64,000 bases of DNA from a virus (lineage: Duplodnaviria; Caudoviricetes): positions 192,001-256,000 of the IMG/VR virus record IMGVR_UViG_3300042892_002922; one strand, given 5' to 3'. The notes under the pieces are model-generated. The model made no database searches. It worked only from the letters and a program-made list of their open reading frames with translations, and was not told where the DNA came from. Positions 5,259-54,379 of the stretch are shown here, in pieces. The translations under genes and the position numbers were made by a program. The first letter of the stretch is position 1, and the number at the start of each line of letters is the position of its first letter.

Positions 5259-8200
5259 ATGGCAAACGAATTTAAAATTAAGAACGGACTCATTGTGTCC
5301 GGCTCTGCGGAAATTGAAAATAATTTAATCGTACATGGTACATTAACAGCGGATTTGGTAAACATCTCTCTTGTTAGTTCATCAGTACTTTATGAAAGTG
5401 GCTCAACCAAATTTGGTAACACTTCAGACGATTTTCATGAATTTACAGGTTCATTATCTATTAGTGGTTCGTTAAACATTAACGGAACATCTTATACTTC
5501 AGCAACAAGCGGAACATCAGGTACTTCTGGAACGTCTGGAACTAGTGGTTCATCAGGAACTGCCGGATCTAGTGGTACGTCAGGTACATCTGGAAGTTCA
5601 GGAACTGCTGGTACTTCGGGTTCTAGTGGCTCAAGCGGAACATCAGGAAGTTCAGGTTCTTCAGGGACGAGTGGAAGCTCAGGTACGTCTGGGTCTTCTG
5701 GTTCAAGTGGAACATCGGGAACGAGTGGGTCTTCAGGAAGTTCTGGTTCGTCAGGAACGAGTGGTACATCTGGTACTAGTGGCACGTCAGGTTCGTCAGG
5801 TAGTTCGGGGTCAAGTGGAACTTCAGGTTCTTCAGGTTCGTCTGGAACATCAGGAAGTTCGGGGTCTAGCGGAACGGCTGGTACTAGTGGAACATCAGGT
5901 TCTTCAGGTAGTTCTGGAACAAGTGGTAGTTCAGGGTCAAGTGGTACGTCTGGGACGAGTGGCACATCCGGGTCTTCAGGTTCTAGTGGCACATCAGGTA
6001 GTTCAGGTTCATCTGGAACAAGTGGCACTTCAGGTACGTCAGGGTCTTCTGGTTCTAGTGGTACATCAGGGTCTTCTGGTAGCTCAGGAACGTCAGGTTC
6101 TAGTGGTACTAGTGGTAGTTCAGGTTCTAGTGGAACATCAGGTTCTTCAGGTAGTTCTGGAACAAGTGGAACTTCTGGTACATCGGGATCAAGTGGATCT
6201 AGTGGAACATCGGGATCAAGTGGATCTAGTGGAACATCAGGTTCTTCGGGTTCAAGTGGTACCAGTGGTACATCTGGCTCTAGTGGATCTAGCGGTACTG
6301 TAACAATGACTGGAACACAAGATAACGGTATCTTAACACTTAATGGTTCCTCACCAAATGCTACAGTTGAAAGTAATCTAAGATTTGATGGCTCATTACT
6401 AACGGTTGTCGGCAATGAAACTATATCAGGTTCATTAATTGTTACAAACGACTTTACAGTATTAGGTTCTTCTTCAATATTATATGTAACATCATCACAA
6501 CTTAGAATTGCAGATAATATTATCACGGTTAACACTTCAAATCCAGGCGCCAGATTTGGTGGTTTAGAGGTATTTGATTCTGGTTCAATTAATAATGCCA
6601 CCGGATCAATTCTTTGGGATTCTGTTAATAACAGATGGATATATCAAAATTCAAGTGATGCTGGTTATGGTGGGGGTATGTTTTTATCTGGACCACGTAG
6701 TTCAGGGTCTTTAGGGTCTGAATTATCGTTAACAAGTGGTAAAATAGCAAAATCGGCAGGTGGTGACCATCTTGACGATTCAAATATAACTGATACGGGT
6801 ACTTTAGTATCAATAAATTCAAATACAGAAATAACAGGTACGTTAAGAGTAACTTCAAATTTATTTATTAACGGAACTTCATATACTGCTGCTACTTCAG
6901 GTACTTCGGGTACATCAGGTTCAAGTGGTACGTCTGGAACATCCGGTTCATCGGGAACTGCGGGTTCATCTGGAACATCAGGTTCCTCTGGGTCAAGCGG
7001 AACTTCAGGTTCTAGTGGGTCTAGTGGGACATCGGGTTCAAGTGGTACATCAGGTTCTAGTGGGTCAAGCGGAACTTCAGGTTCTAATGGCTCATCGGGA
7101 ACATCAGGAACAAGCGGAACCTCTGGTTCTTCTGGCTCTAGTGGTACATCGGGTAGTTCAGGGTCATCAGGTACTAGTGGAACGTCAGGTTCTTCTGGTA
7201 GTTCGGGGTCAAGTGGAACGTCAGGTTCTTCTGGTAGTTCGGGGTCAAGTGGAACGTCAGGTTCTTCTGGGTCAAGTGGCACTTCGGGATCAAGCGGGTC
7301 TAGTGGGACGTCAGGTTCTAGTGGTTCTAGCGGCACATCAGGCAGTTCTGGTTCTTCTGGTTCATCAGGTACTTCTGGCTCTAGCGGATCTTCTGGCACT
7401 TCAGGATCTAGTGGGTCTTCAGGAAGTTCTGGTTCATCGGGAACATCAGGTTCAAGCGGATCTAGTGGAACATCGGGGTCTAGTGGAAGTTCAGGAAGTT
7501 CTGGTTCTAGTGGGTCTTCAGGAAGTTCTGGTTCGTCAGGTTCTAGTGGGTCTTCTGGCACGTCTGGATCTAGTGGTTCATCAGGTTCATCAGGTTCATC
7601 AGGTTCATCAGGTTCATCGGGAAGTTCTGGTTCATCAGGCGCTGCAACAATTAATAGTAATGTAAACGATTATGTTTTAACAGCAACAGGAACCGCCGGA
7701 CTAATTCAAGGTGAATCAAATTTAACATTTGATGGTTCAACATTATCAACGAGTAACGTTACCGCTACTGGTACGTATAATACAAATGCGTCATCAAGTA
7801 GAAACAAATATAACGTTTATTCAACGGGTGCAAGTCCTTATGCTATTGGTATGCAATCGGCAATCACTTATGGTGGTTTAAATGACTGGGGAATGACCTT
7901 CCAATTTAATAACGACAGCGGTAGAGGATTCTGGTGGGGTGACGAAGGACATTCAACAGCACAAGGTGCTATGGCATTAACTACTGACGGTAGATTAACA
8001 GTGGCAAATAATGTTAGAATCGGTTATGGTGAATCTGACGTCACAACACCAACACTACCATTACAAGTATATGGTTCTGGTGGAACAATTGTTGACATTC
8101 AAGGTTCTAGTGGACAGTTATTCTCGGTAACAGATGATTTAACAGGTGACATATTCTCTATTTCAGATATATCAGGTATACCATTTATAAATGTTAACAC

Positions 8201-8453
8201 AACGAATGGTACTAGTTTTGGATATCATATATTCCCATCAGTTAACAATACCTATAACTTAGGTACATCAGCACTTAGATGGGCGAACGTTTATACGAAT
8301 GACTTACATTTAAGTAACGAAGGCAAAGAGGGTGGAAATGATATTGACGGAACAACAGGTAACTGGACAATTCAAGAAGGTGAAGAAAATCTGTATATTG
8401 TCAATAATAAGAATGGTAAGAAGTTCAAAATCAATTTAACCGAAATAGAATAA
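5259..8453 (+). CDS. Fibre protein 1 with two Gly-X-Ser collagen-like tracts and conserved phage fibre C-terminal domain
   Basis: Two (X-S-G)n tracts; C-terminus WANVYTNDLHLSN...GNWTIQEGEENLYIVNNKNGKKFKINLTEIE resembles the terminal domain of T4-like cyanophage fibre proteins. Confidence 0.7.
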   Translation: MANEFKIKNGLIVSGSAEIENNLIVHGTLTADLVNISLVSSSVLYESGSTKFGNTSDDFHEFTGSLSISGSLNINGTSYTSATSGTSGTSGTSGTSGSSGTAGSSGTSGTSGSSGTAGTSGSSGSSGTSGSSGSSGTSGSSGTSGSSGSSGTSGTSGSSGSSGSSGTSGTSGTSGTSGSSGSSGSSGTSGSSGSSGTSGSSGSSGTAGTSGTSGSSGSSGTSGSSGSSGTSGTSGTSGSSGSSGTSGSSGSSGTSGTSGTSGSSGSSGTSGSSGSSGTSGSSGTSGSSGSSGTSGSSGSSGTSGTSGTSGSSGSSGTSGSSGSSGTSGSSGSSGTSGTSGSSGSSGTVTMTGTQDNGILTLNGSSPNATVESNLRFDGSLLTVVGNETISGSLIVTNDFTVLGSSSILYVTSSQLRIADNIITVNTSNPGARFGGLEVFDSGSINNATGSILWDSVNNRWIYQNSSDAGYGGGMFLSGPRSSGSLGSELSLTSGKIAKSAGGDHLDDSNITDTGTLVSINSNTEITGTLRVTSNLFINGTSYTAATSGTSGTSGSSGTSGTSGSSGTAGSSGTSGSSGSSGTSGSSGSSGTSGSSGTSGSSGSSGTSGSNGSSGTSGTSGTSGSSGSSGTSGSSGSSGTSGTSGSSGSSGSSGTSGSSGSSGSSGTSGSSGSSGTSGSSGSSGTSGSSGSSGTSGSSGSSGSSGTSGSSGSSGTSGSSGSSGSSGSSGTSGSSGSSGTSGSSGSSGSSGSSGSSGSSGSSGSSGSSGTSGSSGSSGSSGSSGSSGSSGSSGSSGAATINSNVNDYVLTATGTAGLIQGESNLTFDGSTLSTSNVTATGTYNTNASSSRNKYNVYSTGASPYAIGMQSAITYGGLNDWGMTFQFNNDSGRGFWWGDEGHSTAQGAMALTTDGRLTVANNVRIGYGESDVTTPTLPLQVYGSGGTIVDIQGSSGQLFSVTDDLTGDIFSISDISGIPFINVNTTNGTSFGYHIFPSVNNTYNLGTSALRWANVYTNDLHLSNEGKEGGNDIDGTTGNWTIQEGEENLYIVNNKNGKKFKINLTEIE
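5505..6296 (+). repeat. (T/S)-S-G triplet tract, 88 triplets
   Basis: 792 nt, Gly every third residue, synonymous codons vary. Confidence 0.9.
6894..7640 (+). repeat. (T/S)-S-G triplet tract, 83 triplets
   Basis: 747 nt, Gly every third residue. Confidence 0.9.
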
Positions 8454-41495: not shown

Positions 41496-42545
41496 ATGGG
41501 TAATAAAATTGATTTAAAAAATTATACGTGTAGTGTGCCATTTACATCATTAGAAATACATAACAATGTTTGTTTTGTGTGCTGTCCATCCTGGTTACCA
41601 AACAAAGTAGAACTTAGTGAAATTCCATTAAAAGATGTTTATAATAGCGAACCAATTATTGATATAAGAAACTCGATATTAGATGGTTCATTTAGATATT
41701 GTAGTCAAGAGCTTTGTCCTTATTTAAGTAAATTAGTGAAGTATGGTGCGGAATCTGGGCCAGTCACTTTAAAATCAAATTCAAATGTTAATAGCCCTAT
41801 TGTAAAAAATAACGCACCAGATTATTTGATGATGAATTTTGATAGAACATGTAACTACAAATGTCCATCATGTAGAGTTGATTTAATAGTTGAAAATAGT
41901 GAGGGTATAAAACGTGTAGAAAAAACAATAGAGGAGATTGATAATCACTACTCGAAATATGTTAAAACCCTATATATTACTGGATCAGGGGATCCGTTTG
42001 TTTCTGTCGGATTCAGAAATTATCTAAGAAATTTTAACCCTAAAAAATACCCAAACTTAAATTCCATACACCTACACACAAATGCGTCTATGTGGAATAA
42101 AGAAATGTGGGATAGTATGCCAAACATACACGGATATGTCCACTCTTGTGAAATTAGCATCGACGCTGGTACAAAAGACACCTATGAAAATAAAACCAGG
42201 TTGGGTGGTAAATGGGATAATTTAATTGATAATTTAAAATTCATAAGCACTCTACCAATTTCAGTTAAAACATCATTTGTGGTTCAAGATTCCAATTACA
42301 TGGAAATGGGTATTTTTTACAACTTAATGTACTCAATATTTGGTAAAAGAGTAAATGTGTTTTTTGGTAAGATAACTAATTGGGGGACATTTTCAGAAGG
42401 TGAATTTAAATTAAAACAAGTATGGGATACGGAACATCCAGAACATGAGTTATTTAAAAAAGAGTTTAATAAAGTATGGAAAAATGAAAACCTTTTTCAT
42501 AATTTATATGAGTTTATTGACAACACAAATAAAACTTTAATATAG
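41496..42545 (+). CDS. Radical SAM protein, paralog of 32437; ends NKTLI
   Basis: YTCSVPF..VCCPSW; CSQELCP; DRTCNYKCPSCR; ITGSGDPF. Confidence 0.85.
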   Translation: MGNKIDLKNYTCSVPFTSLEIHNNVCFVCCPSWLPNKVELSEIPLKDVYNSEPIIDIRNSILDGSFRYCSQELCPYLSKLVKYGAESGPVTLKSNSNVNSPIVKNNAPDYLMMNFDRTCNYKCPSCRVDLIVENSEGIKRVEKTIEEIDNHYSKYVKTLYITGSGDPFVSVGFRNYLRNFNPKKYPNLNSIHLHTNASMWNKEMWDSMPNIHGYVHSCEISIDAGTKDTYENKTRLGGKWDNLIDNLKFISTLPISVKTSFVVQDSNYMEMGIFYNLMYSIFGKRVNVFFGKITNWGTFSEGEFKLKQVWDTEHPEHELFKKEFNKVWKNENLFHNLYEFIDNTNKTLI

Positions 42546-43106
42546 ATGAGAATTTTAATACTATCACATACAAGATGTGGTTCTACCACATTATGTAAAT
42601 GGATATCAAAAGAATTGAATTTTGAAGTAGATTATGATCATTACGATGCTAACACATTTAATTCAATTTTCATTAAAAATAATATAATAAAAAAAATTGT
42701 TATCGAAGAATACAATCCACCAAATGAAGTTATTGAAAAATTTGATAAAGTTATTTGTTTAAGTAGGGAAAATAATATTGACAGTGCCATAAGTTTTATT
42801 AATGCTGATAACAAAAGCAGGTGGCACGACATATATGAAATAACAAATGAGTGGATTGAAGATAATAAAAATAAAATAATAGAAACTGTTTACAAATATG
42901 AACAATTAAAAACCTTATTAAAAAATAAAGATTTATTTCAAATAACGTATGAAAATATGTATATTAATAAAATAGACGTTAATAGAGTTATTAGTTATTT
43001 AAACATTGAAAACCCAAAACATTTGGATATGCTTGATTATGATAAAAAATATAGAAAAGACACATATACTTTAACACATGATTTTAAGAGAAAAAATATC
43101 ATTTAG
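42546..43106 (+). CDS. Sulfotransferase-like (Stf0-type) protein; ends RKNII
   Basis: ILILSHTRCGSTTL; LSRENNIDSAIS; ITYENM. Confidence 0.6.
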   Translation: MRILILSHTRCGSTTLCKWISKELNFEVDYDHYDANTFNSIFIKNNIIKKIVIEEYNPPNEVIEKFDKVICLSRENNIDSAISFINADNKSRWHDIYEITNEWIEDNKNKIIETVYKYEQLKTLLKNKDLFQITYENMYINKIDVNRVISYLNIENPKHLDMLDYDKKYRKDTYTLTHDFKRKNII

Positions 43107-43608
43107 TAAAGATGAGTGTGATTACATAATAAATTTATCCAAAGAGTTGGATGAACTTAAACCATTTGGTTATGATGACAATGTTAATAAAGAAAAAATA
43201 ACAATTAGATATTTTGTTTGGGTTATCAATAGAAACAATAAAACCCAATGGATATTTGATAAAATTCAAACGTATTTTATAAATAAAACTAATATAAAGA
43301 TAAAAAAAGAATTAGATAAAATATATATACACAAATATGACACCGGCCAACAATTTGAAAAACATGCTGACACATATTATAAAACACAAATACACAATGT
43401 AGGGGTATGTTTAAACAATGATTATGATGGAGGTGAATTTGTTTTATATAATCCAGAAGAACAATTACCAAAAGAAACGGGTAACATATATACTTTCCCT
43501 AGTCAAAGAATACATGAAGTAAAAAAAATAATAAAGGGTGAAAGGTGGAGCATTATTGGATTTTTACATATTGATAATTTAGATTTCCCTAAAAAATCAC
43601 TAATATGA
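43078..43608 (+). CDS. 2OG-Fe(II) oxygenase; ends KKSLI
   Basis: FEKHAD; LNNDYDGGEF; HEVKKIIKGERWSII. Confidence 0.85.
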   Translation: MILREKISFSKDECDYIINLSKELDELKPFGYDDNVNKEKITIRYFVWVINRNNKTQWIFDKIQTYFINKTNIKIKKELDKIYIHKYDTGQQFEKHADTYYKTQIHNVGVCLNNDYDGGEFVLYNPEEQLPKETGNIYTFPSQRIHEVKKIIKGERWSIIGFLHIDNLDFPKKSLI

Positions 43609-44162
43609 AAATTGGAATAACAGGACATTCTAACGGAATTGGAAATGACATTTATTCAAATTTAATAAAAGAATATGATGTTATAGGATTTAGTAGAAGT
43701 AATGGTTTTGATATTAAAAATACGGATAAAATTATAGAACAATTGGATGATTGTGATATTTTTATAAACAACGCTTACGAAGGAAACTATCAAACAATAT
43801 TATTTGAATTAATTTTTGATAAATGGAAATTTTTACCAAAAACAATTATTAATATGAATAGCAGTTGTGTGTATCATTCATCCGATTGGTCGCCAGAATA
43901 TGCAAATAATAAAAAAGAGTTAAAAGAAGTATCTTTAAATGCGATTAGAAATAATAAAAATAAAAAAGTTAGGGTCATAAATTTATATCCATCCACCTTA
44001 TCAACTCATATGGGGTTTGAAAGTTTAAATAAATTAGATACTGAAAATCTTGCAAAAATTATAAATTGGTTAATAAAACAACCACAAGAAATAGAAATTA
44101 GAGAGATGAGTATATATTGTACAACATTGGAGAAAGAATTTAAAACAAATAAATTAATATGA
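43605..44162 (+). CDS. Short SDR/Rossmann oxidoreductase; ends TNKLI
   Basis: IGITGHSNGIG; FINNAY; YANNK (YxxxK). Confidence 0.75.
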   Translation: MKIGITGHSNGIGNDIYSNLIKEYDVIGFSRSNGFDIKNTDKIIEQLDDCDIFINNAYEGNYQTILFELIFDKWKFLPKTIINMNSSCVYHSSDWSPEYANNKKELKEVSLNAIRNNKNKKVRVINLYPSTLSTHMGFESLNKLDTENLAKIINWLIKQPQEIEIREMSIYCTTLEKEFKTNKLI

Positions 44163-44970: not shown

Positions 44971-47691
44971 ATGAATATATTAGCACATACGTCGTTTATT
45001 GGTACCACTGGGTATGCCAATCATGCAAGGTCGTTTTTCTGCGCCTTAAACAAGTATCACAAAGTAAGGGTTAGAAACCTTACCATTGGTAATAGTTGGA
45101 ATGATTATAATGAAAAGCCACACGAAGGCGAATCATATATCACTGATGAGATGAAGGATATGTTAATCCTTCAAAGTTTGTTTAACGCTGATGGTTCAAC
45201 TAGTGATTATCCAATTTATAACTTTAAAAAAGATTTTGTTCCAGATGTCCACATTGTTTTGGTGGAAACCGACAACATTTATTTTTATCATGATTATGAT
45301 GGCTATAAAATAGCGTACAATGTTTGGGAATCAACATTATATCCAGATAATTTCTTCAAGCGACTATTTTACTTTGATGAGGTTTGGGTGCCGACCAAGT
45401 GGCAGTTTGATTGTTTAGTTGCGCAAGGGTATCCTGCTGAAAAAATATCTATAGTTCCAGAAGGTGTTGATGTTGACACATTTAAACCAATAGAAAAATA
45501 CCCACAAAGAGATAAGATTAGATTTGTGTATTTTGGTCGTTGGGATTATAGAAAAGGAACGACTGAAGTACTCAGAGCTTTTGGTGAGGTCTTTAAAGAT
45601 GTTGATGATGTAGAATTAATTGCATCTGTTGAGAACCCGTACCCGAACGATGGTTTAAAGTCAACAGAGGAACGAATTAAAAAACACGAAATTGATACAG
45701 AGAAAATAACGTTTCTTAATTTTCCATCGAGAGAAGAATATGTAAAATACTTACAAGAAGCACATGTATTTGTTTCTTGTGCTAGAAGCGAAGGTTGGAA
45801 TCTACCGCTTATTGAAGCGATGGCTTGCGGTACGCCGGCCATTTATTCTAATTGGGGTGGTCAACTAGAATTTGCTGAAGGTAAAGGTGTTCCGGTTAGT
45901 ATCAAGGAATTAAGACCTGCTAACATAGAAAGAAAAGAATTTCCAGGTGAATATTGTGAACCAGATTGGGATGACCTTAAATGGAAAATGAGACAAGCGT
46001 ACGATTATCAAACAGCTATGTGGATTAAATCCAGATCTGATGCTAAAGATATTCACAAGAACTTTAATTGGGAAACAATAGCTGAAAACGCATCAAAAAT
46101 AATCAACTCTAGATTCAAGTCATTTGCATTTGTTACAACTGGTAACTTACAATATATGCCGGTTATTGAAAAGTTGGTACAATCATTAATGATGTTTTCA
46201 AGACACAAGATAATTGTTTATGGTGTTGATTGTGAAGTGCCGTTTGATTATCCTAATGTGATTAGAAAAACAATCAATCCACCCAAAATATCAGAACACG
46301 ATAAATGGTATTGGAAACAATGGGCTTGTTTGGAATCATTAAACGAAGATTTTGATTATTATATTTGGGTTGACGGTGATGTTGTTGTTAATTACAATAT
46401 CGATACCGTTACAAAATATTTCAAACATGTTGGTAGATATCCATTGTCGGATATACATGTTCAAGAAGAATTCTTTGGAACATATGATGACGGTAAAACG
46501 CAATTGTTTAATGAAGAGTTAGCTAAAAGATGGGGTGTTGAAAAACAACAACCATACATGCATATTTGTTTCTACATTTACAATCAAGGTTCAAGAGCAT
46601 TTTTTGATGGTATATTGGGATATTATGACACAATGATGAAAGGTAGCCCTGAAGATTATAAACGATATTTTTTATGGAATGATGAAGGTATTGATAATGC
46701 AATAAGATGGAACCACGGTTTTACTAATCATTTACCTATATCAAATTTTGACACATCATCATATGATGGGGATGAAGGGTTTATTGATAAAACGTTACAT
46801 CAGTTTTATAAGTTCTGGAATGAAGATGGTCCACAAAACTTCAATAGAATATTTGGGTATCAATTTATACCAGAAGATAAATCAAATATATTATATTTCC
46901 ACGGGAATAAGAATGCTGAGATATCGGACAAGATGATTGAGTTTATTAAAATGAAAAGAGATGATTCATTTTATAAGTCATATTGTTTTTATACTGACGT
47001 ATATAAATTGGAAAACTTTAATCAATATTTCAATATTGAAGGGGGTACAATTGAGATAGCAAACAAACATGGTTGGTTTGTTGCCATATTTCACGAGATA
47101 TTTAATCTTTTGGATTATTATAAAAATAGAGAGAGAAGAATCTTTGATGGCGACGTTGTAGTTGAGTTGGGTGGGAATATCGGCATCTTTAATAGATGGG
47201 CGTACAGTCAAGGTGCTAGCAAAGTTATTTCGTTTGAGCCAGATAAAAGATACTTTAAACTTCTCTCATTAAATGCTGATCCGCGTTCTGTATTATTCAA
47301 TGCTGCGGGAAGTGATTCTATTGGTGAATTAAGTTTATTTGAGAGCACACACATAGGTGGATCTAATTTATTTGGAACACAGGAAGGTGCTAAAGAATAT
47401 AAGGTAAGAACATATACGCTAGATTATCTTTTTGAAACGGGGTTAGTTGATAAAATAGATTTTCTAAAGGTAGACATTGAGGGAGCAGAACATCACGCGT
47501 TCAAAGGTATCAGCGATGAAAACCTAATGAAAGTTAAAAACATTTCAATGGAATATCACCATAGCCACTTTGATTATGACGAAGAATTGAGACAAGATTT
47601 AATTAATCGTATGGTTAGATTAGGTTTTAACCCCTACACATTGTTTATGGGTGACAATAACGCACTACAAATGATATATTTTACAAGATGA
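44971..47691 (+). CDS. Tri-domain fusion: GT4 (GT-B) + GT-A-like domain + FkbM methyltransferase
   Basis: FVSCARSEGWNLPLIEAMACGTP (GT4); YIWVDGD (DxD); VELGGNIG..FEP...IDFLKVDIEGAE..ISMEYH (FkbM). Confidence 0.85.
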   Translation: MNILAHTSFIGTTGYANHARSFFCALNKYHKVRVRNLTIGNSWNDYNEKPHEGESYITDEMKDMLILQSLFNADGSTSDYPIYNFKKDFVPDVHIVLVETDNIYFYHDYDGYKIAYNVWESTLYPDNFFKRLFYFDEVWVPTKWQFDCLVAQGYPAEKISIVPEGVDVDTFKPIEKYPQRDKIRFVYFGRWDYRKGTTEVLRAFGEVFKDVDDVELIASVENPYPNDGLKSTEERIKKHEIDTEKITFLNFPSREEYVKYLQEAHVFVSCARSEGWNLPLIEAMACGTPAIYSNWGGQLEFAEGKGVPVSIKELRPANIERKEFPGEYCEPDWDDLKWKMRQAYDYQTAMWIKSRSDAKDIHKNFNWETIAENASKIINSRFKSFAFVTTGNLQYMPVIEKLVQSLMMFSRHKIIVYGVDCEVPFDYPNVIRKTINPPKISEHDKWYWKQWACLESLNEDFDYYIWVDGDVVVNYNIDTVTKYFKHVGRYPLSDIHVQEEFFGTYDDGKTQLFNEELAKRWGVEKQQPYMHICFYIYNQGSRAFFDGILGYYDTMMKGSPEDYKRYFLWNDEGIDNAIRWNHGFTNHLPISNFDTSSYDGDEGFIDKTLHQFYKFWNEDGPQNFNRIFGYQFIPEDKSNILYFHGNKNAEISDKMIEFIKMKRDDSFYKSYCFYTDVYKLENFNQYFNIEGGTIEIANKHGWFVAIFHEIFNLLDYYKNRERRIFDGDVVVELGGNIGIFNRWAYSQGASKVISFEPDKRYFKLLSLNADPRSVLFNAAGSDSIGELSLFESTHIGGSNLFGTQEGAKEYKVRTYTLDYLFETGLVDKIDFLKVDIEGAEHHAFKGISDENLMKVKNISMEYHHSHFDYDEELRQDLINRMVRLGFNPYTLFMGDNNALQMIYFTR

Positions 47692-48344
47692 GTACACTAG
47701 ATAAATTAGCAAAAATGCACGGAACTGATAAGAGTTCTGATATACACAATTACTGTGTTAAGTATGAAAAGTATCTACCATTTAATCGTTATGATAAGTT
47801 AATGATGATGGAGATTGGTGTGTTAGATGGTAAATCCTTATTAACTTGGAAGGATTATTTTTATCGTTCACACATTCTAGGTATTGATATAAATCCTGAA
47901 TGTAAAAAATACGAAGAAGAAAGAATTACAATTGAGATTGGTTCTCAAGCTGATGGTGGTTTCTTATCTAGAACCAGCGAACATTATGGGCCATTTGACA
48001 TCATTTTAGATGATGGTTCACATATGAATGACCATGTAACTTATTCTTTCCAGCATTTATTTGATTCAGTAAAACCAGGTGGCGTTTATATTGTTGAAGA
48101 TTGTGCCACGGCTTACTGGGATGAATATGGTGGCGGTTATTTAAAACCAAGTACAAGTATAGAATATTTTAAATCCTTATCAGATGATTTAAACTTCCGT
48201 GGACTAATGAATCACAACAAACCAAATGTACACGCAAGAAGGGAAGATTGGTTAATTGAAAATTCAAAAAGCATCCCAACATGTAGAACGGATATTGAAT
48301 CCATAAATTTCCTAAATGGAATTATTATTGTAACTAAGAGATAA
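47688..48344 (+). CDS. Class I SAM-dependent (sugar O-) methyltransferase
   Basis: HGTDK..HNY; MEIGVLDGKS; FDIILDDGSH; GGVYIVED. Confidence 0.8.
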   Translation: MSTLDKLAKMHGTDKSSDIHNYCVKYEKYLPFNRYDKLMMMEIGVLDGKSLLTWKDYFYRSHILGIDINPECKKYEEERITIEIGSQADGGFLSRTSEHYGPFDIILDDGSHMNDHVTYSFQHLFDSVKPGGVYIVEDCATAYWDEYGGGYLKPSTSIEYFKSLSDDLNFRGLMNHNKPNVHARREDWLIENSKSIPTCRTDIESINFLNGIIIVTKR

Positions 48345-50467
48345 TGTACACACAATTCACTGAAGATATATTTGTAATTGATTGTTGGCTTGACACTAAA
48401 GAGAAAGAGCTAGCACTAACTAATTTAATTGAAAGGGTTAAAGTTTATAATATACCAATAATACTATGTGGTCACTACCCAATTAAACCTGAGTTCCAAG
48501 AAATGGTTGATTATTGTATCTATGACAAGAACAATGACATTTTAGAAGAAAAGGATTTTGAAGAGTATGGTGTTGTTAGTGATAGATGGACAGAGACAGA
48601 CGATTTTAAAATAAGTAACAAGGTTACATTTCACCATGATTATGCTATATGGTTAACAATGAAGAATGCTTTTAACCTAGCAAATCAATTGGGTAAGAAA
48701 TACATACACTTTCTTGAGTACGATAACCTACCAGATGAGATTCAATATCGTCAAGCGTTTATTGAATACATCAGACATCACGATGCGGTTGTTTATGAAT
48801 ATAGTGAAGGATCAACTAATGAACCATCACCCTTTTCGGCTACGTACATATTTTCAATTAAAACTGACATCGCATTAAGTTTGGTTAATAAGATTAATAG
48901 TAAGAAGGAGTTCTTTTTACGAAAACAACATGAATGGCAATTAGAAAAAACATTCTACCAAACATTACAAACTGTAACTAAAAGAATATTTGTTACAAAA
49001 TACATAGCAAATGATGACGAGTTAAATCTTTTTGCTGCTTGGAATAGGGATGGTATTAATAGAAACGGCGCTAGATTTCAAACATATCTATGTGTTGATG
49101 ATAATGAAGATTTGTCAATCCATTTTATATCTGGTTTTAATGATAAACCGGCCACACAAGATTATGTGGTTGAAATCAACTATGGTGATGTTAAAGAGTT
49201 TTACAAAATTATCATAGGTAATTTTCATTTAAAAAAACTTGGTAAATACATTAAAGGATTACCTGTTATAGTTTATTATCAAGGCGTACAAGTATTTTCT
49301 GATTTACTTATTGATGATGTTAAAGAATTTAAACGAAAGAATAATATAACAAGAAAAAACAAAGAGATATCAAAAAACATTAATGTTAATTTTGTTGATG
49401 GACCATTCATTGAGATACTAGAAAAAACCGCCAAAGAATATCGTATTGAATTTATTGATAATAAAAGTGGAAGAGTTTTACATGAAACAAATATTAAAAG
49501 TAATCACTGGGCGAAAGCATCAATAAAATATTATGTTGATTGGTTAATTAAGGTGAGTGGTGTTGATAACGATTTTTATTTTGAGCATAAATTTAACCCT
49601 AATGAAAATAGATTCTTCATTAGTTTTGAGAGCAAATCATTAGGTGACAGTTTAGCATTTATACCATATGTGGATGAGTTTAGAAAGAAACATAATTGTT
49701 CAGTTGTTTGTTCAACATTCTTTAACGATTTATTTAAAAATGAATACCCAGAAATTGAGTTTGTTTCACCTGGTTCAACTGTTAATAACATCTACGGTCT
49801 TTATCGAATCGGTATGTTCTATAATGATTCTAAAATGATTGATTATGATAAACATTTGACCGACCCCAAAAAGGAGCCATTATTAAAAATTGCATCAGAT
49901 ATTTTAGGTTTAGATTATAAAGAGGTTAGACCTAAGTTACCAAAAATTGGTAACACTAAACAGAAATTAGTAACTATAGCAATTCATTCTACAGCACAAG
50001 CGAAATATTGGAATAACCCAACTGGTTGGCAAGATGTTGTTGATTACTTAATTGGTAAAGGATACGAGGTTAGGTTGTTATCAAAAGAAGAAGACGGTTA
50101 CATGGGTAACATTCATCCAAAAGGTATAACACAACAACCTGCTGGTGATTTAAACAGCGTAATTAAGACAATACAAGAATCAGAATTCTTTATTGGGATT
50201 AGTAGCGGGTTGAGTTGGTTGGCGTGGGGATGTGGAACACCAACAATATTAATATCCGGATTTACAGATGTATTTGCAGAACCATTTCAAAACATTTACC
50301 GAGTAATAAATAAAGAAGTTTGTAATAGTTGTTGGTCCGATTATGATTTTGACGCCGGTAACTGGAAGTGGTGCCCAGTACATTCAAATACTGATAAACA
50401 ATTTGAATGTTCTAAACAAATAACATCAAAACAAGTTATAGGGGAAATTGATAAATTAATTAACTAA
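48344..50467 (+). CDS. N-terminal GT-A-like domain fused to a TibC/Aah-like (autotransporter strand-loop-strand) O-heptosyltransferase domain
   Basis: From residue 345: NINVNFVDGPFIEI; KSLGDSLAF (Asp435); FIGISSGLSWLAW; four-Cys iron finger CNSCW(660,663)..WCP(677)..FEC(689). Confidence 0.8.
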   Translation: MYTQFTEDIFVIDCWLDTKEKELALTNLIERVKVYNIPIILCGHYPIKPEFQEMVDYCIYDKNNDILEEKDFEEYGVVSDRWTETDDFKISNKVTFHHDYAIWLTMKNAFNLANQLGKKYIHFLEYDNLPDEIQYRQAFIEYIRHHDAVVYEYSEGSTNEPSPFSATYIFSIKTDIALSLVNKINSKKEFFLRKQHEWQLEKTFYQTLQTVTKRIFVTKYIANDDELNLFAAWNRDGINRNGARFQTYLCVDDNEDLSIHFISGFNDKPATQDYVVEINYGDVKEFYKIIIGNFHLKKLGKYIKGLPVIVYYQGVQVFSDLLIDDVKEFKRKNNITRKNKEISKNINVNFVDGPFIEILEKTAKEYRIEFIDNKSGRVLHETNIKSNHWAKASIKYYVDWLIKVSGVDNDFYFEHKFNPNENRFFISFESKSLGDSLAFIPYVDEFRKKHNCSVVCSTFFNDLFKNEYPEIEFVSPGSTVNNIYGLYRIGMFYNDSKMIDYDKHLTDPKKEPLLKIASDILGLDYKEVRPKLPKIGNTKQKLVTIAIHSTAQAKYWNNPTGWQDVVDYLIGKGYEVRLLSKEEDGYMGNIHPKGITQQPAGDLNSVIKTIQESEFFIGISSGLSWLAWGCGTPTILISGFTDVFAEPFQNIYRVINKEVCNSCWSDYDFDAGNWKWCPVHSNTDKQFECSKQITSKQVIGEIDKLIN

Positions 50468-50481
50468 CATTCAAACGAACA

Positions 50482-50490
50482 AGTATTTAT
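50482..50490 (+). promoter_or_regulatory. AGTATTTAT motif (putative late promoter)
   Basis: 22 nt upstream of ATG 50513. Confidence 0.4.
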
Positions 50491-50512
50491 CTAAGTATAA
50501 TACCATATTTAG

Positions 50513-53500
50513 ATGAATATATTTGACGCACACATATCGGGATCATTATCCGTATCAAGTTCAGCCGAAATTTCGGGTGATTTAAAAGTTTTAGGAACAA
50601 TTAGTGGTTCCTTTAGTGGTGATGGCTCTAATATCACAAACATCCCAGCGGGTGGTGTTGTTGGACTTAATTTAACACGAATAGCTGACGGTGCATCAAC
50701 AGCATCAATTTCAAATACAGATGGTTTAAGAATTAATACAAATTCAGAAATTACTGGTTCATTAATTATAACCGGTGATTTAATTATAAGTGGAACATCT
50801 TTTAATGCCGCGACCTCAGGTACATCTGGTACATCAGGAACCTCAGGTACATCTGGAACCTCAGGGTCTTCAGGTTCAAGTGGAACATCAGGTACTAGTG
50901 GAACTAGCGGAACCTCAGGAAGTTCAGGATCAAGTGGAACATCGGGATCAAGTGGAAGTTCTGGTTCTAGCGGAACGTCAGGTACGAGTGGTTCTTCAGG
51001 TACATCTGGCACATCAGGAACCTCAGGTTCATCGGGAAGTTCGGGTACGTCTGGAACCAGCGGAAGTTCTGGGTCATCAGGTACAAGTGGAACATCTGGT
51101 TCATCCGGAAGTTCTGGTTCTAGTGGAACATCGGGATCAAGCGGTACCTCAGGCACTAGTGGAACCTCAGGATCAAATGGTAGTTCGGGCACGAGTGGTT
51201 CTTCGGGTTCATCTGGAAGTTCGGGTACGTCAGGTACTAGTGGAAGTAGCGGTTCTTCAGGAACATCTGGTTCTTCAGGAACATCAGGTTCAAGTGGTAG
51301 TTCTGGTACTAGTGGAAGTAGTGGTTCTTCAGGAACCGCTGGAACTTCAGGAACCTCAGGTTCTAGTGGTAGTTCTGGAACATCAGGTTCTAGTGGATCT
51401 AGCGGAACCGCTGGTACAAGTGGTACATCGGGATCTTCTGGTTCTAACGGGTCGTCAGGTACTTCAGGAACAAGCGGAACATCTGGTTCATCAGGAACTT
51501 CAGGTTCATCAGGTTCTAGTGGAACGAGCGGTAGTTCTGGTTCATCAGGAACATCAGGTTCTAACGGGTCGTCAGGTACTTCAGGAACAAGCGGAACATC
51601 TGGTTCATCAGGAACTTCAGGTTCATCAGGTTCTAGTGGAACATCTGGGTCTTCAGGGTCAAGCGGTACATCAGGTTCAAGCGGAAGTTCAGGAACATCC
51701 GGAAGTTCAGGGTCTAGTGGTACAGCGGGGACATCAGGAACCTCAGGTTCTAGTGGATCTAGTGGATCTAGCGGAACCGTAACAATGAGCGGAACACAAG
51801 ACAATGGTGTTCTAACACTTAATGGTTCCTCACCAAACGTAACTGCGGAAAATAATTTAAGATTTGATGGTTCACTTTTAACCGTTGTTGGTAACGAAAC
51901 AATATCTGGTTCCTTAATTGTGACAAACAATTTTACAGTATTAGGTTCATCCTCAATAACATACGTAACATCATCTCAATTAAGAGTTGAAGACAATATT
52001 ATCACAGTAAACACTGCTAGCCCTGGATCTAGATTTGGTGGACTAGAAGTTCATGATTCAGGATCGGTTGGTATTGCTACTGGTTCAATTCTTTGGGATT
52101 CTGTTAACAATAGATGGATTTATCAAAACTCAAGTGAGGCGGGTTATGGTGGCGGTGTATTATTGTCAGGTCCTAGAAGTTCTGGTTCACTAGGTAGTGA
52201 ATTAACATTAACTAGTGGTAGAGTTGCAAAGTCAGCGGGCGGAGACCACTTAAATGATTCAAATATAACAGACAACGGTACAACCGTTTCGATAAATTCA
52301 AATACAGAAATCACTGGTTCATTAATTGTTACTGGTGGTAATAAATTAGTTGTAAATGCTACTGGTGGTGATGAAGGTGGTGAAATTTTATTAGGGAAAG
52401 CGTTAACTAATACAACACTTGTTGGTGAGGGAGTTACAGTAGATATTTGGCAAAATAGATTAAGATTTTTTGAACAAGGTGGAACTGCGAGAGGTGCATA
52501 TATTGATATCTCAAGTTTAGCGGCAGGTGTTGGTACCAACCTGGTTGGTGCTGGTTCATCAGGTACTTCTGGAACTAGTGGTACCTCTGGCACATCGGGT
52601 TCTAGTGGAACATCAGGATCTAATGGTTCGTCTGGTACGTCAGGTTCATCAGGAACAAGTGGTACAAGTGGTAGTTCAGGATCTAATGGTTCATCTGGCA
52701 CGTCAGGGTCTTCAGGGTCTAGCGGAACATCGGGATCTAATGGTTCATCTGGCACGTCAGGAACATCGGGTTCTAATGGTTCTAGTGGAACATCAGGTTC
52801 TTCAGGTTCTAGTGGAACATCTGGTTCATCCGGAAGTTCTGGTTCAAGTGGGACCTCAGGTTCTTCAGGTAGTTCAGGTTCATCCGGAACAAGTGGAAGT
52901 TCGGGAACATCAGGTTCTAATGGTTCTAGTGGAACATCAGGTTCTTCAGGTAGTTCAGGGTCAAGCGGAACGTCTGGGTCTTCAGGTTCTAGTGGTACTT
53001 CGGGTACTTCAGGAAGCTCAGGAACAAGTGGGTCTTCAGGTTCTTCTGGATCTAGTGGAACATCGGGTTCTAACGGATCTAGTGGTACGTCGGGTTCATC
53101 AGGTTCTAGCGGTTCTAGTGGAACTTCAGGTTCTTCTGGTTCTAGCGGAAGTTCAGGAACAAGTGGATCTTCAGGGTCTAGTGGTTCAAGTGGAACCAGT
53201 GGTAGTTCGGGGAGTTCTGGTTCAAGTGGAACATCTGGGTCTTCAGGAAGTTCTGGTTCTAGCGGGTCTTCTGGTACGTCAGGTACTTCTTTTGCTAATA
53301 GTTTTAATATAAATCAAAATTTAGGAACAAGTAACTCACCAACATTTGGTGGTTTAACAATTACAGGTGGTGGTTCAGTTAGCACAGTATTAACAGGTGC
53401 TAACGTTGGTGACTTATTGTATGCATCAATTGCTGATAACGATTATTTCAGATTAAGAGTTGGTGGTACAGCAACAAATGCCGGTTATGTTGAAATAGCA

Positions 53501-54379
53501 ACTTCCGATGATGGTACCGAACCAATATATGTTAGACAATACACGGGTGTGTTTAGTAGTATAACTAGGACTGCAACATTACTAGATGGTAGTGGTAACA
53601 CATCATTTCCAGGTACAATTACAGCCCCAACATTCTCAGGAGCACTATCCGGAAACGCAACCACTGCAACCACTGCGGGCGCTTTAACATCAATGAACAT
53701 TTCACAGTTCACAAATAATAGTGCTTACATCACAGGTATATCTTTTGCAAACGTTTCATCAAAACCAACAACAATAAGTGGATATGGAATTACAGATGCA
53801 ATTACAACAGCTAACATTGGCTCTCAGTCCGTATCATTTGCAACAAGTGCTACAAGCGCAACTACTGCGGGTAGTGCACCAAACGCTAGTAATTTAAACG
53901 CATCTTATGGTGTATCAACGGGTAATGGAAACGGATTAAAATTTTGGGGAGGTTCCGACACGTATAAAATTCATATGGGTAGTTCATCTGAATATTATTA
54001 TGGCCCTGTTACAGATTACTCCATAAAGTGTAATATAGATAGTAATAGTTCGACAAGAGGTTTCACTTGGGGACAAAGTGGAGTAACACCAATTGCCGCG
54101 TTAAACGTAGGAAATGGAAATATGCAAATCGCAGGTACATTCACATCAGGTGGAAGTATATTACCATTAAGTAATGGTACGTTAAACTTAGGTTCATCTG
54201 GAGCAAGATGGAACACATTATTTACATCGGATTTATCGTTATCAAACGGTATTGGTGATTACACAATTGTTGAGGGTGAGGATGATTTGTTCTTATATAA
54301 TAATAAAAGAAATAAAGTATATAAATTTATGTTGCAAGAAGTAAAACCAGAAGATGCAACACCAAAGCGACCAGAATAA
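50513..54379 (+). CDS. Fibre protein 2 with two Gly-X-Ser collagen-like tracts (paralog of 5259)
   Basis: Two (X-S-G)n tracts; shared 181-aa inter-repeat module; C-terminus WNTLFTSDLSLSN..GDYTIVEGEDDLFLYNNK. Confidence 0.7.
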   Translation: MNIFDAHISGSLSVSSSAEISGDLKVLGTISGSFSGDGSNITNIPAGGVVGLNLTRIADGASTASISNTDGLRINTNSEITGSLIITGDLIISGTSFNAATSGTSGTSGTSGTSGTSGSSGSSGTSGTSGTSGTSGSSGSSGTSGSSGSSGSSGTSGTSGSSGTSGTSGTSGSSGSSGTSGTSGSSGSSGTSGTSGSSGSSGSSGTSGSSGTSGTSGTSGSNGSSGTSGSSGSSGSSGTSGTSGSSGSSGTSGSSGTSGSSGSSGTSGSSGSSGTAGTSGTSGSSGSSGTSGSSGSSGTAGTSGTSGSSGSNGSSGTSGTSGTSGSSGTSGSSGSSGTSGSSGSSGTSGSNGSSGTSGTSGTSGSSGTSGSSGSSGTSGSSGSSGTSGSSGSSGTSGSSGSSGTAGTSGTSGSSGSSGSSGTVTMSGTQDNGVLTLNGSSPNVTAENNLRFDGSLLTVVGNETISGSLIVTNNFTVLGSSSITYVTSSQLRVEDNIITVNTASPGSRFGGLEVHDSGSVGIATGSILWDSVNNRWIYQNSSEAGYGGGVLLSGPRSSGSLGSELTLTSGRVAKSAGGDHLNDSNITDNGTTVSINSNTEITGSLIVTGGNKLVVNATGGDEGGEILLGKALTNTTLVGEGVTVDIWQNRLRFFEQGGTARGAYIDISSLAAGVGTNLVGAGSSGTSGTSGTSGTSGSSGTSGSNGSSGTSGSSGTSGTSGSSGSNGSSGTSGSSGSSGTSGSNGSSGTSGTSGSNGSSGTSGSSGSSGTSGSSGSSGSSGTSGSSGSSGSSGTSGSSGTSGSNGSSGTSGSSGSSGSSGTSGSSGSSGTSGTSGSSGTSGSSGSSGSSGTSGSNGSSGTSGSSGSSGSSGTSGSSGSSGSSGTSGSSGSSGSSGTSGSSGSSGSSGTSGSSGSSGSSGSSGTSGTSFANSFNINQNLGTSNSPTFGGLTITGGGSVSTVLTGANVGDLLYASIADNDYFRLRVGGTATNAGYVEIATSDDGTEPIYVRQYTGVFSSITRTATLLDGSGNTSFPGTITAPTFSGALSGNATTATTAGALTSMNISQFTNNSAYITGISFANVSSKPTTISGYGITDAITTANIGSQSVSFATSATSATTAGSAPNASNLNASYGVSTGNGNGLKFWGGSDTYKIHMGSSSEYYYGPVTDYSIKCNIDSNSSTRGFTWGQSGVTPIAALNVGNGNMQIAGTFTSGGSILPLSNGTLNLGSSGARWNTLFTSDLSLSNGIGDYTIVEGEDDLFLYNNKRNKVYKFMLQEVKPEDATPKRPE
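50813..51775 (+). repeat. (T/S)-S-G triplet tract, 107 triplets
   Basis: 963 nt, Gly every third residue. Confidence 0.9.
52556..53284 (+). repeat. (T/S)-S/N-G triplet tract, 81 triplets
   Basis: 729 nt, Gly every third residue, several SNG triplets. Confidence 0.9.

What the first reader, a model, noticed from the sequence alone, without database searches (positions are those of the whole stretch)
48344..54379. TibC/Aah-like protein O-heptosyltransferase directly upstream of a Ser-rich fibre
Seen: catalytic-type LGD motif and four-Cys iron finger, 45 nt before a fibre with 188 Ser/Thr-Gly triplets. Established: TibC/Aah are iron-containing dodecamers that hyper-heptosylate Ser in adjacent-encoded bacterial autotransporters using ADP-heptose. 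Inference: the phage has adopted this enzyme-substrate gene pairing to prime O-glycosylation of its virion fibres, with a fused GT-A domain adding the next sugar. No gmhA/hldE genes are in the window, so the donor is host-derived, encoded elsewhere, or not heptose.
Basis: partly seen in the sequence, partly recalled or inferred. Interest (0 to 1): 0.85.

Follow-up and report, generated by a model that had tools for sequence, protein, structure and literature searches.

The report
Phage enzyme that sugar-coats collagen-like fibres
A widespread lake phage carries a true relative of the bacterial TibC/Aah protein heptosyltransferases, fused to a second sugar-transferase fold and placed just before a proline-free, serine-packed collagen-like fibre gene, so the phage most likely sugar-coats its own fibres, though no experiment has tested this.

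Summary
The 707-aa protein at 48344-50467 has a C-terminal half (342-707) that meets the curated TIGR04414 model (296 bits; cut-off 200). It superposes on TibC over the whole chain, beta-barrel included (Z 35.7). It keeps the catalytic Asp (D435), three of four donor-binding residues and all four iron-finger Cys. Its N-terminal half has a GT-A / nucleotide-diphospho-sugar-transferase fold (Z about 15) followed by a beta-sandwich.

The 1288-aa fibre gene starts 45 nt downstream. It holds 189 G-X-Y triplets with X = Ser or Thr, Y = Ser in 176, never Thr, and no Pro.

Comparative evidence links enzyme and repeats:
- 24 of 38 dereplicated related viral loci have such a fibre directly downstream.
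- Among fibres sharing this N-terminal domain, 19 of 19 with the repeats have the enzyme nearby. None of the 42 without repeats do.
- A tree separates a repeat-associated clade (phages plus Methylococcales and others) from a clade with no such neighbour.
- Some relatives encode HldD- and HldE-like ADP-heptose genes.

Activity, donor and acceptor remain untested. This scan has already noted the same theme on at least seven other genomes. My literature searches found no paper describing it.

The parts
44971..47691 (+). 906-aa GT4 glycosyltransferase, unassigned middle region and FkbM-type methyltransferase. First gene of the conserved cassette.
   Evidence: Pfam Glycos_transf_1 1.1e-16 and Methyltransf_21 1.6e-16. 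PHROG glycosyltransferase and methyltransferase. Collinear with the enzyme gene in all related loci with enough flank. Fused to the BAHT protein in Microcystis phage Mel-JY01.
47688..48344 (+). 218-aa SAM methyltransferase. Overlaps the upstream gene by 4 nt and the enzyme gene by 1 nt.
   Evidence: Pfam Methyltransf_24 and PHROG methyltransferase. Conserved position. Coordinates.
48344..49048 (+). N-terminal domain of P0001 (residues 1 to about 235) with a GT-A / nucleotide-diphospho-sugar-transferase fold. Candidate metal-binding E125-Y-D127 follows a beta-strand.
   Evidence: VIA-align Z 15.1-13.3 to mannosylglycerate synthase, GtrB, ArnC, Chlorella virus hyaluronan synthase and WrtF, and Z about 14 to IspD and GlmU, over model residues 1/8-235. 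No Pfam hit in any of 18 members. Invariant residues.
49076..49354 (+). Beta-sandwich linker domain (residues 245-337).
   Evidence: AF2 secondary structure is all-beta from 245 to 337. Foldseek hits to FN3 domains. The aligned range was not printed, so the assignment is inferred.
49367..50464 (+). BAHT (TibC/Aah-type) domain, residues 342-707: beta-barrel 343 to about 421, then a GT-B catalytic core with hairpin thumb and Cys4 finger.
   Evidence: TIGR04414 296 bits. PDB TibC E 1.7e-54. Foldseek E 5e-31, TM 0.80-0.82. VIA-align Z 35.7, rmsd 2.6 A over 351 residues.
49646..49648 (+). Codon of D435, the equivalent of the TibC catalytic base D110.
   Evidence: Alignment. Invariant in 17 of 17. 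Role of D110 from PMC4358343.
50321..50410 (+). Cys4 'iron-finger' segment (C660, C663, C677, C689, with F687 = TibC F368).
   Evidence: Alignment. Invariant. TibC C339/342/358/370 bind Fe. Low pLDDT here, as expected without the metal.
50468..50512 (+). 45-nt AT-rich spacer between the enzyme and fibre genes. It holds TATTTAT and TATAAT-like words. No terminator-like site was found.
   Evidence: Sequence. Terminator scan. A promoter function is not shown.
50513..54379 (+). 1288-aa virion fibre with two proline-free collagen-like segments. The proposed acceptor.
   Evidence: Pfam Collagen 8.5e-78. PHROG tail-fibre families. C-terminal 68 residues match the fibre protein gp28 of cyanophage P-SCSP1u, PDB 8i4m, E 5.7e-9.
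50819..51781 (+). Collagen-like run 1: 107 G-[ST]-S triplets (residues 103-423).
52553..53290 (+). Collagen-like run 2: 82 G-[ST]-S triplets (residues 681-926).
5259..8453 (+). Second fibre of the same kind (1064 aa, 171 G-[ST]-S triplets, Y never Thr). A probable second acceptor, 40 kb away.

Best explanation
P0001 is a two-enzyme fusion made late in infection in the host cytoplasm, together with the fibre encoded 45 nt downstream. Its C-terminal BAHT domain works like TibC/Aah. It binds an ADP-activated heptose, and with D435 as base it transfers the sugar onto serine hydroxyls of the G-[ST]-S repeats of the fibre, chiefly the invariant Y-position Ser. It probably also acts on the second fibre at 5259-8453. 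The Cys4 finger and the hydrophobic hairpin tip are kept, so it probably acts as an oligomer. The N-terminal GT-A-fold domain and the upstream GT4 enzyme then extend the sugar, and the FkbM-type and Methyltransf_24 methyltransferases methylate it. Each fibre would carry hundreds of short methylated glycans before it trimerises. Shown: family membership, conserved residues, folds, gene order, covariation and heptose-nucleotide genes in relatives. Inferred: the activity, the acceptor residue, the donor, the order of steps and the oligomeric state.
For: Family and fold:
- TIGR04414 scores above its cut-off.
- TibC matches over the full chain, beta-barrel included.
- D435, T550, K554, W625, the four Cys, F687 and the Y586-M587 tip are invariant.
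- S620 matches Aah Ser-294, which tolerates both heptose epimers.

Synteny:
- 24 of 38 dereplicated loci have a G-[ST]-S fibre 52-72 nt downstream, and 6 more have one elsewhere in the locus.
- The cassette GT4-FkbM / MT / N-domain-BAHT is collinear everywhere.
- GT4 and BAHT form one polypeptide in Mel-JY01, next to a Ser-rich structural protein.

Covariation:
- Among fibres with this N-terminal domain, 19 of 19 with repeats have the BAHT gene. None of the 42 without repeats do.
- Four large contigs with repeat-free fibres have no TIGR04414 hit.

Wider family:
- Stand-alone BAHTs of other phages also adjoin G-T-S fibres.
- In the tree, the clade holding the window has 42 of 60 collagen-like neighbours. 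The other clade has 0 of 50.

Acceptor logic:
- Y is Ser 176, Thr 0 of 189, while X is 44% Thr. Y-Ser uses all six codons.
- TibC/Aah modify Ser, not Thr, and accept Gly/Ser-rich peptides.

Donor:
- hldD-, rfaE-I- and rfaE-II-like genes occur in G001. hldD- and rfaE-I-like genes lie beside the cassette in L042.
Against: - No biochemical data exist.
- TibC R286, the adenine contact whose Ala mutant is inactive, is V/I/L in this clade.
- GmhA and GmhB were found in no related genome.
- The complete 271-kb relative G002 has no rfaE-like gene.
- The heptose-gene hits score below the curated equivalog cut-offs.
- The host is probably a Bacteroidota, on weak evidence, and its ADP-heptose supply is unknown.
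- Six dereplicated loci show no collagen gene within the locus.
- The covariation counts are not phylogenetically independent.
- The GT-A-type fold is shared by nucleotidyltransferases.
- A 340-residue N-terminal extension might not fit a TibC-like dodecamer.
Confidence: 0.65

Rival explanations
1. The acceptor is the same (fibre serines), but the BAHT domain transfers a sugar other than heptose, or heptose from a non-ADP nucleotide.
For: The adenine-contacting R286 of TibC is replaced by V/I/L in all 17 homologues. GmhA and GmhB are absent from the related genomes searched. G002 has no rfaE-like gene. The window has its own large nucleotide-sugar factory: a fused SDR pair, GT7 enzymes and a carbamoyltransferase.
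Against: T226, K230 and W305 equivalents and the epimer-determining Ser are invariant. The best NCBIfam hits of phage genes in G001 and L042 are the three ADP-heptose enzymes. In L042 they lie 0.8-1.6 kb downstream of the enzyme gene.
Confidence: 0.15
2. The cassette acts on something other than the fibre: another virion protein, a lipid-linked or free glycan, or the host envelope. It lies next to fibre genes only because both are late genes.
For: Six dereplicated loci have the cassette without a collagen gene in view. In the 46-48% clade the fibre lies 3-4.5 kb upstream rather than adjacent. GT9 relatives act on LPS.
Against: The association tracks the repeats, not the fibre scaffold: 19 of 19 against 0 of 42. 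It recurs with unrelated fibres, and in bacterial chromosomes with small secreted G-T-[SA] proteins. The TibC-specific beta-barrel and finger, which bind the protein substrate in TibC, are kept.
Confidence: 0.12
3. The N-terminal domain is not a second glycosyltransferase. It is a sugar-1-phosphate nucleotidyltransferase, or a non-catalytic module, that supplies or channels the donor to the BAHT domain.
For: IspD, GlmU and AGPase match at Z 13.5-14.4, almost as well as the GT-A glycosyltransferases. There is no Pfam glycosyltransferase hit. The domain is found only fused to BAHT.
Against: The top structural matches are glycosyltransferases at Z 15.1. An acidic E-x-D follows the fourth strand, where GT-A enzymes carry DxD. 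The only local hhalign match puts it on the DVD of the window's GT7, but without significance. Protein-language neighbours are GT25, GT2 and WavE-type clusters, which is a lead only. From my own reading, I see no G-x-G-x-R loop at strand 1.
Confidence: 0.15

Closest known systems
TibC and Aah, the bacterial autotransporter heptosyltransferases (BAHT family, TIGR04414; PDB 4RAP/4RB4; PMC4358343)
   Same: Same fold over the whole chain, including the N-terminal beta-barrel, the hairpin thumb and the Cys4 finger. Same catalytic Asp and three of the four donor residues. A cytoplasmic enzyme encoded beside a repetitive, Ser-rich substrate gene. Ser, not Thr, is the likely acceptor.
   Different: Encoded by a phage. 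Fused to a GT-A-fold domain and a beta-sandwich. Embedded in a cassette with GT4 and two methyltransferases. The neighbour is a collagen-like fibre, not an autotransporter. R286 is not conserved. About 30-33% identity. It falls in a separate clade from the Burkholderiaceae and Negativicutes homologues. TibC itself was not placed in my tree.
LPS heptosyltransferases WaaC and WaaF (GT9)
   Same: GT-B catalytic core and ADP-heptose-type donor site (Pfam PF01075 hit; Z 17-20).
   Different: They lack the beta-barrel and the Cys4 finger. They align only from residue 415 or 422. NCBIfam scores are 14-29 bits against cut-offs of 170-467.
Mycobacteriophage virion O-glycosylation (Freeman et al. 2023, as cited in PMC12619734)
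   Same: Phage-encoded glycosyltransferases that decorate the phage's own structural proteins in the host cytoplasm.
   Different: There the targets are the C-termini of capsid and tail-tube subunits, and no BAHT-type enzyme was mentioned in the text I read. Here the target would be hundreds of serines in a collagen-like fibre.
Glycosylated collagen-like proteins such as Bacillus anthracis BclA (own knowledge; BclA appears only as a weak PDB sequence hit)
   Same: Bacterial-type collagen repeats with a hydroxy-amino acid at the Y position that carries O-linked sugars.
   Different: BclA uses G-P-T repeats and rhamnose-based glycans made by unrelated enzymes. Here the repeats have no Pro and the enzyme is a BAHT.

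Membership tests
BAHT (TibC/Aah, TIGR04414) | Scores above the curated equivalog cut-off over the full model | tested here: met
   296 bits against 200, model positions 8-373 of 374.
BAHT (TibC/Aah, TIGR04414) | N-terminal flattened beta-barrel preceding the GT-B core, absent from LPS GT9 enzymes | tested here: met
   Model residues 343-707 superpose on TibC 21-388 (Z 35.7). WaaC, WaaF and 3tov align only from 415 or 422.
BAHT (TibC/Aah, TIGR04414) | Catalytic base Asp-110 | tested here: met
   D435, invariant in 17 of 17.
BAHT (TibC/Aah, TIGR04414) | Donor-binding Thr-226, Lys-230 and Trp-305 | tested here: met
   T550, K554 and W625 are invariant.
BAHT (TibC/Aah, TIGR04414) | Adenine-contacting Arg-286 | tested here: not met
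   V606 in the window and V/I/L in all homologues. An invariant K608 lies two residues on.
BAHT (TibC/Aah, TIGR04414) | Four Cys of the 1Fe-0S iron finger | tested here: met
   C660, C663, C677 and C689 align with C339, C342, C358 and C370 and are invariant. Metal binding itself cannot be tested here.
BAHT (TibC/Aah, TIGR04414) | Beta-hairpin thumb with two successive hydrophobic tip residues (F265, V266) | tested here: met
   Y586 (Y or F) and M587 (invariant). The hairpin is 3 residues shorter. Model confidence at the tip is low.
BAHT (TibC/Aah, TIGR04414) | Dodecameric ring | not testable with these tools
   My only complex job included the fibre fragment as a chain and was not folded, so oligomerisation was not tested.
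BAHT (TibC/Aah, TIGR04414) | Substrate is an adjacent-encoded autotransporter | tested here: not met
   The neighbour is a collagen-like phage fibre. The same holds in 24 of 38 relatives.
BAHT (TibC/Aah, TIGR04414) | ADP-heptose:protein Ser O-heptosyltransferase activity | not testable with these tools
   Indirect only: hldD- and rfaE-like genes in relatives.
GT-A glycosyltransferases (N-terminal domain) | GT-A / nucleotide-diphospho-sugar-transferase fold | tested here: met
   Z 13.3-15.1 over residues 1/8-235.
GT-A glycosyltransferases (N-terminal domain) | DxD metal-binding motif and membership of a described GT family | tested here: inconclusive
   E125-Y-D127 is nearly invariant. No Pfam family matches. 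hhalign to the window's GT2 and GT7 is not significant.
Collagen triple-helix repeat (PF01391) | Uninterrupted G-X-Y repeats | tested here: met
   Runs of 107 and 82 triplets. Pfam E 8.5e-78.
Collagen triple-helix repeat (PF01391) | Imino-acid (Pro/Hyp) content that stabilises the helix, and trimer formation | tested here: not met
   0 Pro in 378 X and Y positions. Trimer formation cannot be tested here.

The most novel reading that the evidence does not exclude
A whole subfamily of BAHT enzymes, in phages and in some free-living bacteria such as Methylococcales, is dedicated not to autotransporters but to proline-free G-[ST]-S collagen-like repeats. Dense O-heptosylation of the Y-position serine would take over the role of hydroxyproline in stabilising or stiffening the triple helix of virion fibres. 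This would be a new solution to collagen stability and a very common, unrecognised form of virion glycosylation in lakes.
Probability: 0.35. Interest if true: 0.85.

Novelty: new variant of a known kind. Interest (0 to 1): 0.7.

Why it matters
Protein O-heptosylation by BAHT enzymes is so far known as a virulence trait of a few Gram-negative pathogens acting on autotransporters. If the reading holds, there are three consequences:
- The family's largest natural radiation lies in environmental phages and targets collagen-like fibres (763 clusters at 50% identity with E below 1e-30).
- A common lake phage, near-identical in at least 24 runs from about 21 studies, carries heavily glycosylated fibres.
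- Proline-free collagen gets a testable stabilising mechanism.

The system is simple to test in E. coli, which makes both ADP-heptose epimers. It could also give a tool for dense, sequence-programmed glycosylation of G-S-S repeats.

Tried and rejected
There is no verdict.
- The search for related loci with the single protein found nothing. The first fibre alignment had no usable conserved stretch.
- The N-domain has no Pfam, PHROG or PDB-sequence match. A profile search finds it only fused to BAHT. hhalign against the window's own GT2 and GT7 is not significant.
- GmhA and GmhB were not found in related genomes. No rfaE-like gene was found in the window.
- No RNA run holds this DNA. Relatives' metatranscriptome scraps pile up on the repeats, with only two near-identical 151-nt pieces on the fibre's 5' end. 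This does not show transcription or an operon.
- The sigma-70 promoter scan was at shuffle level.
- Seven literature searches found no paper on phage BAHTs or glycosylated collagen-like phage fibres: TibC with phage, autotransporter heptosyltransferase with collagen, heptosyltransferase with collagen-like and phage, virion glycosylation, O-heptosyltransferase with phage, collagen-like tail fibre glycosylated, and Mel-JY01. The 'moraphage' paper (PMC12619734) mentions core glycosyltransferases but neither collagen nor heptose.
- I considered and rejected a giant eukaryotic virus as the source. The relatives have a T4-type gp23 capsid gene, and the genes are tightly co-oriented.

Full report
THE OBSERVATION. 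The window holds a 707-aa ORF at 48344-50467 (P0001) and a 1288-aa ORF at 50513-54379 (P0002), both on the + strand and separated by 45 nt.

The C-terminal half of P0001 (342-704) matches NCBIfam TIGR04414, 'autotransporter strand-loop-strand O-heptosyltransferase'. It scores 296 bits against a curated cut-off of 200 and covers model positions 8-373 of 374. LPS heptosyltransferase models reach only 14-29 bits. Against PDB sequences the only hits are TibC (4RAP, 4RB4), E 1.7e-54, over TibC residues 22-386.

An AlphaFold model was built from 17 homologues (mean pLDDT 82). It gives TibC as the top Foldseek hit (E 5e-31, TM 0.80-0.82). By VIA-align, model residues 343-707 superpose on TibC 21-388 at Z 35.7, rmsd 2.6 A over 351 residues. 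WaaC, WaaF and 3tov reach Z 17-20 and align only from residue 415 or 422, that is, without the beta-barrel.

RESIDUES. I read TibC numbering off the alignment and took residue roles from the eLife paper PMC4358343.

- D110, the catalytic base, corresponds to D435.
- T226, K230 and W305 correspond to T550, K554 and W625.
- C339, C342, C358 and C370 correspond to C660, C663, C677 and C689.
- The thumb tip F265-V266 corresponds to Y586-M587, and F368 to F687.

All of these are invariant or conservatively kept in 17 homologues.

[quoted passage not shown] Aah also has Ser at this position and accepts both epimers.

One defining residue fails. R286, the adenine N1 contact whose Ala mutant is inactive, is V606 here and V/I/L in all homologues, with an invariant K608 two residues later.

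THE N-TERMINAL HALF. Residues 1-340 have no Pfam, PHROG or PDB-sequence match. A profile search finds them only fused to BAHT domains.

Structurally, residues 1/8-235 match GT-A glycosyltransferases. These include mannosylglycerate synthase (Z 15.1), GtrB, ArnC, Chlorella virus hyaluronan synthase, WrtF and TarP. Nucleotidyltransferases of the same superfold (IspD, GlmU, AGPase) match nearly as well, at Z 13.5-14.4. Residues 245-337 are an all-beta sandwich.

A nearly invariant E125-Y-D127 follows a strand at the place where GT-A enzymes carry DxD. The 'fused GT-A domain' is thus right at fold level. Its catalytic role is inferred.

THE FIBRE. P0002 has 189 G-X-Y triplets in two runs, residues 103-423 and 681-926. 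X is Ser 106 / Thr 83. Y is Ser 176, Asn 9, Ala 3, Val 1. There is no Pro in the repeats.

Thr never occupies Y, although it fills 44% of X. The same holds in the second fibre at 5259-8453, where Y is Thr in 0 of 171 triplets. If Y used Thr as X does, the chance of none in 176 would be below 1e-40 (my calculation from the counts).

Y-Ser is spelled with all six codons: TCN 119 times and AGY 57 times. Serine at Y is therefore kept at the protein level, not by DNA-repeat homogenisation. This fits an enzyme that modifies Ser but not Thr, as shown for TibC and Aah.

The last residues of P0002 match the fibre protein gp28 of cyanophage P-SCSP1u (PDB 8i4m, E 5.7e-9). PHROG hits are tail-fibre families.

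CONTEXT IN THE WINDOW. The enzyme is the last gene of a translationally coupled run. The first gene is a GT4-FkbM fusion at 44971-47691. The second is a methyltransferase at 47688-48344, which overlaps its neighbours by 4 nt and 1 nt. The third is P0001.

The rest of the window is a large glycan and fibre island. It holds two GT7-LamG fusions, a fused SDR pair, radical SAM enzymes, 2OG oxygenases, a carbamoyltransferase, an APS-kinase-like gene and C1q-like and LamG proteins.

RELATIVES AND SYNTENY. The two-domain protein has more than 745 clusters at 90% identity in metagenomes. These are either about 707 aa or about 900 aa with an extra N-terminal methyltransferase. JGI's pipeline already names them O-heptosyltransferases.

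In 80 IMG/VR loci, the cassette GT4-FkbM / MT / N-domain-BAHT is collinear wherever the flank allows. After dereplication at 90% there are 38 clusters:

- 24 have a G-[ST]-S fibre 52-72 nt downstream.
- 6 have one elsewhere in the locus. Five of these lie 3-4.5 kb upstream, just before the GT4 gene. One lies about 2 kb downstream.
- 6 show none.
- 2 are too short to judge.

In all these fibres X is S or T and Y is S, and Pro is essentially absent in nearly all of them.

In Microcystis phage Mel-JY01, GT4, the N-domain, a methyltransferase and BAHT form one 1226-aa protein. It follows a Ser-rich 'structural protein'.

Stand-alone BAHTs of other phages, 47-52% identical, also adjoin G-T-S fibres.

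COVARIATION TEST. I searched IMG/VR with the conserved N-terminal domain of the fibre. Sixty-one loci had at least 3 kb of upstream flank.

- Of the 42 fibres without G-X-Y repeats, none has a BAHT gene within 9 kb.
- All 19 fibres with repeats have one, 15 of them within 200 nt (Fisher p 3e-16).

The loci are not phylogenetically independent, so the p-value overstates the case.

Four large contigs with repeat-free fibres (160-251 kb, 48-75% complete) have no TIGR04414 hit.

The window's fibre N-terminus is closer to repeat-free fibres (72-82% identity) than to the repeat-bearing fibres of BAHT relatives (38-47%). The enzyme therefore tracks the repeats rather than the fibre scaffold.

CELLULAR RELATIVES AND TREE. 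In one genome per species, the only full two-domain match is a 254-kb contig binned with a Bacteroidetes MAG.

BAHT-only homologues at 41-47% identity occur in Methylococcales, Polaromonas and others. Thirteen of them lie beside small proteins with S/T-rich G-X-Y repeats. In cultured Methylobacter luteus IMV-B-3098 the neighbour is a 287-aa protein with a signal peptide and G-T-[SA] runs.

A tree of 110 BAHT domains splits with full support into two clades. One clade holds Burkholderiaceae, Acetobacteraceae and Negativicutes, and 0 of 50 rows have a collagen-like neighbour. The other holds the phages, the window and the Methylococcales group, and 42 of 60 rows have one. TibC itself was not in the tree.

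DONOR. I found no rfaE-like gene in the window. The N-half of the protein at 23857-25761 is an HldD-like SDR (135 bits), fused to an Fcl-like half.

The complete 335-kb relative G001 has an operon of three genes whose best NCBIfam hits are ADP-heptose enzymes. HldD scores 203 bits, RfaE domain I 129 bits and RfaE domain II 93 bits. All are below the equivalog cut-offs.

In L042, hldD-like (191 bits) and rfaE-I-like (115 bits) genes lie 0.8-1.6 kb downstream of the enzyme gene.

GmhA and GmhB were found nowhere. The complete 271-kb G002 lacks rfaE-like genes. A first-stage note reports an HldD-like gene 29.8 kb beyond this window in the same genome. I could not read that DNA.

Heptose is therefore the best-supported donor, with part of the pathway left to the host.

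LINEAGE AND ECOLOGY. Relatives carry a T4-type gp23 capsid gene, and complete genomes are 271-335 kb. The nearest capsids are an uncultured huge phage (LR756508), Mel-JY01, Flavobacterium phage immuto and Rhodothermus RM378.

The enzyme gene is near-identical in at least 24 lake or freshwater metagenome runs from about 21 studies. No RNA run holds it, and relatives' metatranscriptome scraps do not show transcription.

MECHANISM AND COMPARISON. The most likely reading is cytoplasmic glycosylation of the fibre's serines by the BAHT domain, probably with heptose. The GT-A-fold domain and the GT4 enzyme would then extend the sugar, and the two methyltransferases would methylate it.

It works like TibC/Aah and passes most membership tests. 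It differs in substrate class, domain fusion, cassette and one donor residue.

My literature searches found no description of a phage BAHT or of glycosylated collagen-like phage fibres. This scan has reported the same theme on at least seven other genomes, with follow-ups that reached similar conclusions. Those are AI notes, not independent evidence. For the scan, this is another member of a recurring finding.

VERDICT. I class it as a new variant of a known kind, with confidence 0.65 and interest 0.7.

Noticed in passing
window:5259-8453 (+), with 8457-9089 and 9408-9980: A second 1064-aa G-[ST]-S collagen-like fibre (171 triplets, Y never Thr) is followed by two small proteins with weak C1q-domain hits. 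It lies 40 kb from the enzyme.
   Followed up: partly
window:23857-25761 (+): A 634-aa fusion of two SDRs. The N-half hits ADP-glyceromanno-heptose 6-epimerase (135 bits) and the C-half hits GDP-L-fucose synthase (288 bits). It may process a heptose or 6-deoxy nucleotide sugar.
   Followed up: partly
window:16909-18300 and 18297-19727 (+): Two tandem proteins combine GT7 (beta-1,4-galactosyltransferase-type) N and C domains with a LamG domain. GT7 is a mostly eukaryotic family, seen here in a phage.
   Followed up: no
window:30633-32312, 33564-34025, 32437-33558, 41496-42545: A carbamoyltransferase, an APS-kinase-like protein and several radical SAM enzymes lie in the same co-oriented island. 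They suggest carbamoylated and sulfated glycans or proteins.
   Followed up: no
L173:4995-5858 and 5899-7197 (Methylobacter luteus IMV-B-3098 chromosome): A cultured methanotroph encodes a 287-aa signal-peptide protein with G-T-[SA] runs directly before a BAHT homologue (43% identical to the window's domain). Similar pairs occur in 12 other Methylococcales, Polaromonas and related bacterial genomes. This is a tractable natural test system.
   Followed up: partly
L017:2350-3480 (G001, 335-kb relative): This relative has a second, stand-alone 376-aa BAHT paralogue a few genes upstream in the same cassette. In the window this slot holds three small ORFs instead (42546-44162).
   Followed up: partly
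L091-L135 (IMG/VR): The fibre's first 90 or so residues are 72-82% identical to those of 1300-1700-aa fibres that have no collagen repeats and no BAHT nearby. The fibre N-terminus is therefore a mobile module shared across phage lineages.
   Followed up: partly
L249:3988-7477 (Succiniclasticum ruminis DSM 9236): Two tandem BAHT paralogues lie next to an FkbM-type methyltransferase and a protein of more than 1300 aa cut by the contig end. The BAHT-FkbM partnership is thus not restricted to phages.
   Followed up: no
window:50816-51600: Freshwater metatranscriptome assemblies hold very many short contigs 80-95% like the G-[ST]-S repeat DNA, at summed depths of hundreds to thousands. Such repeat genes are evidently common in lakes. 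Transcription is not shown.
   Followed up: partly
L085:8469-8855 (-), G001: A 128-aa cupin-like protein lies directly upstream of the rfaE-II / rfaE-I / hldD-like operon, in a genome with no GmhA. Whether it replaces the missing isomerase is unknown.
   Followed up: no
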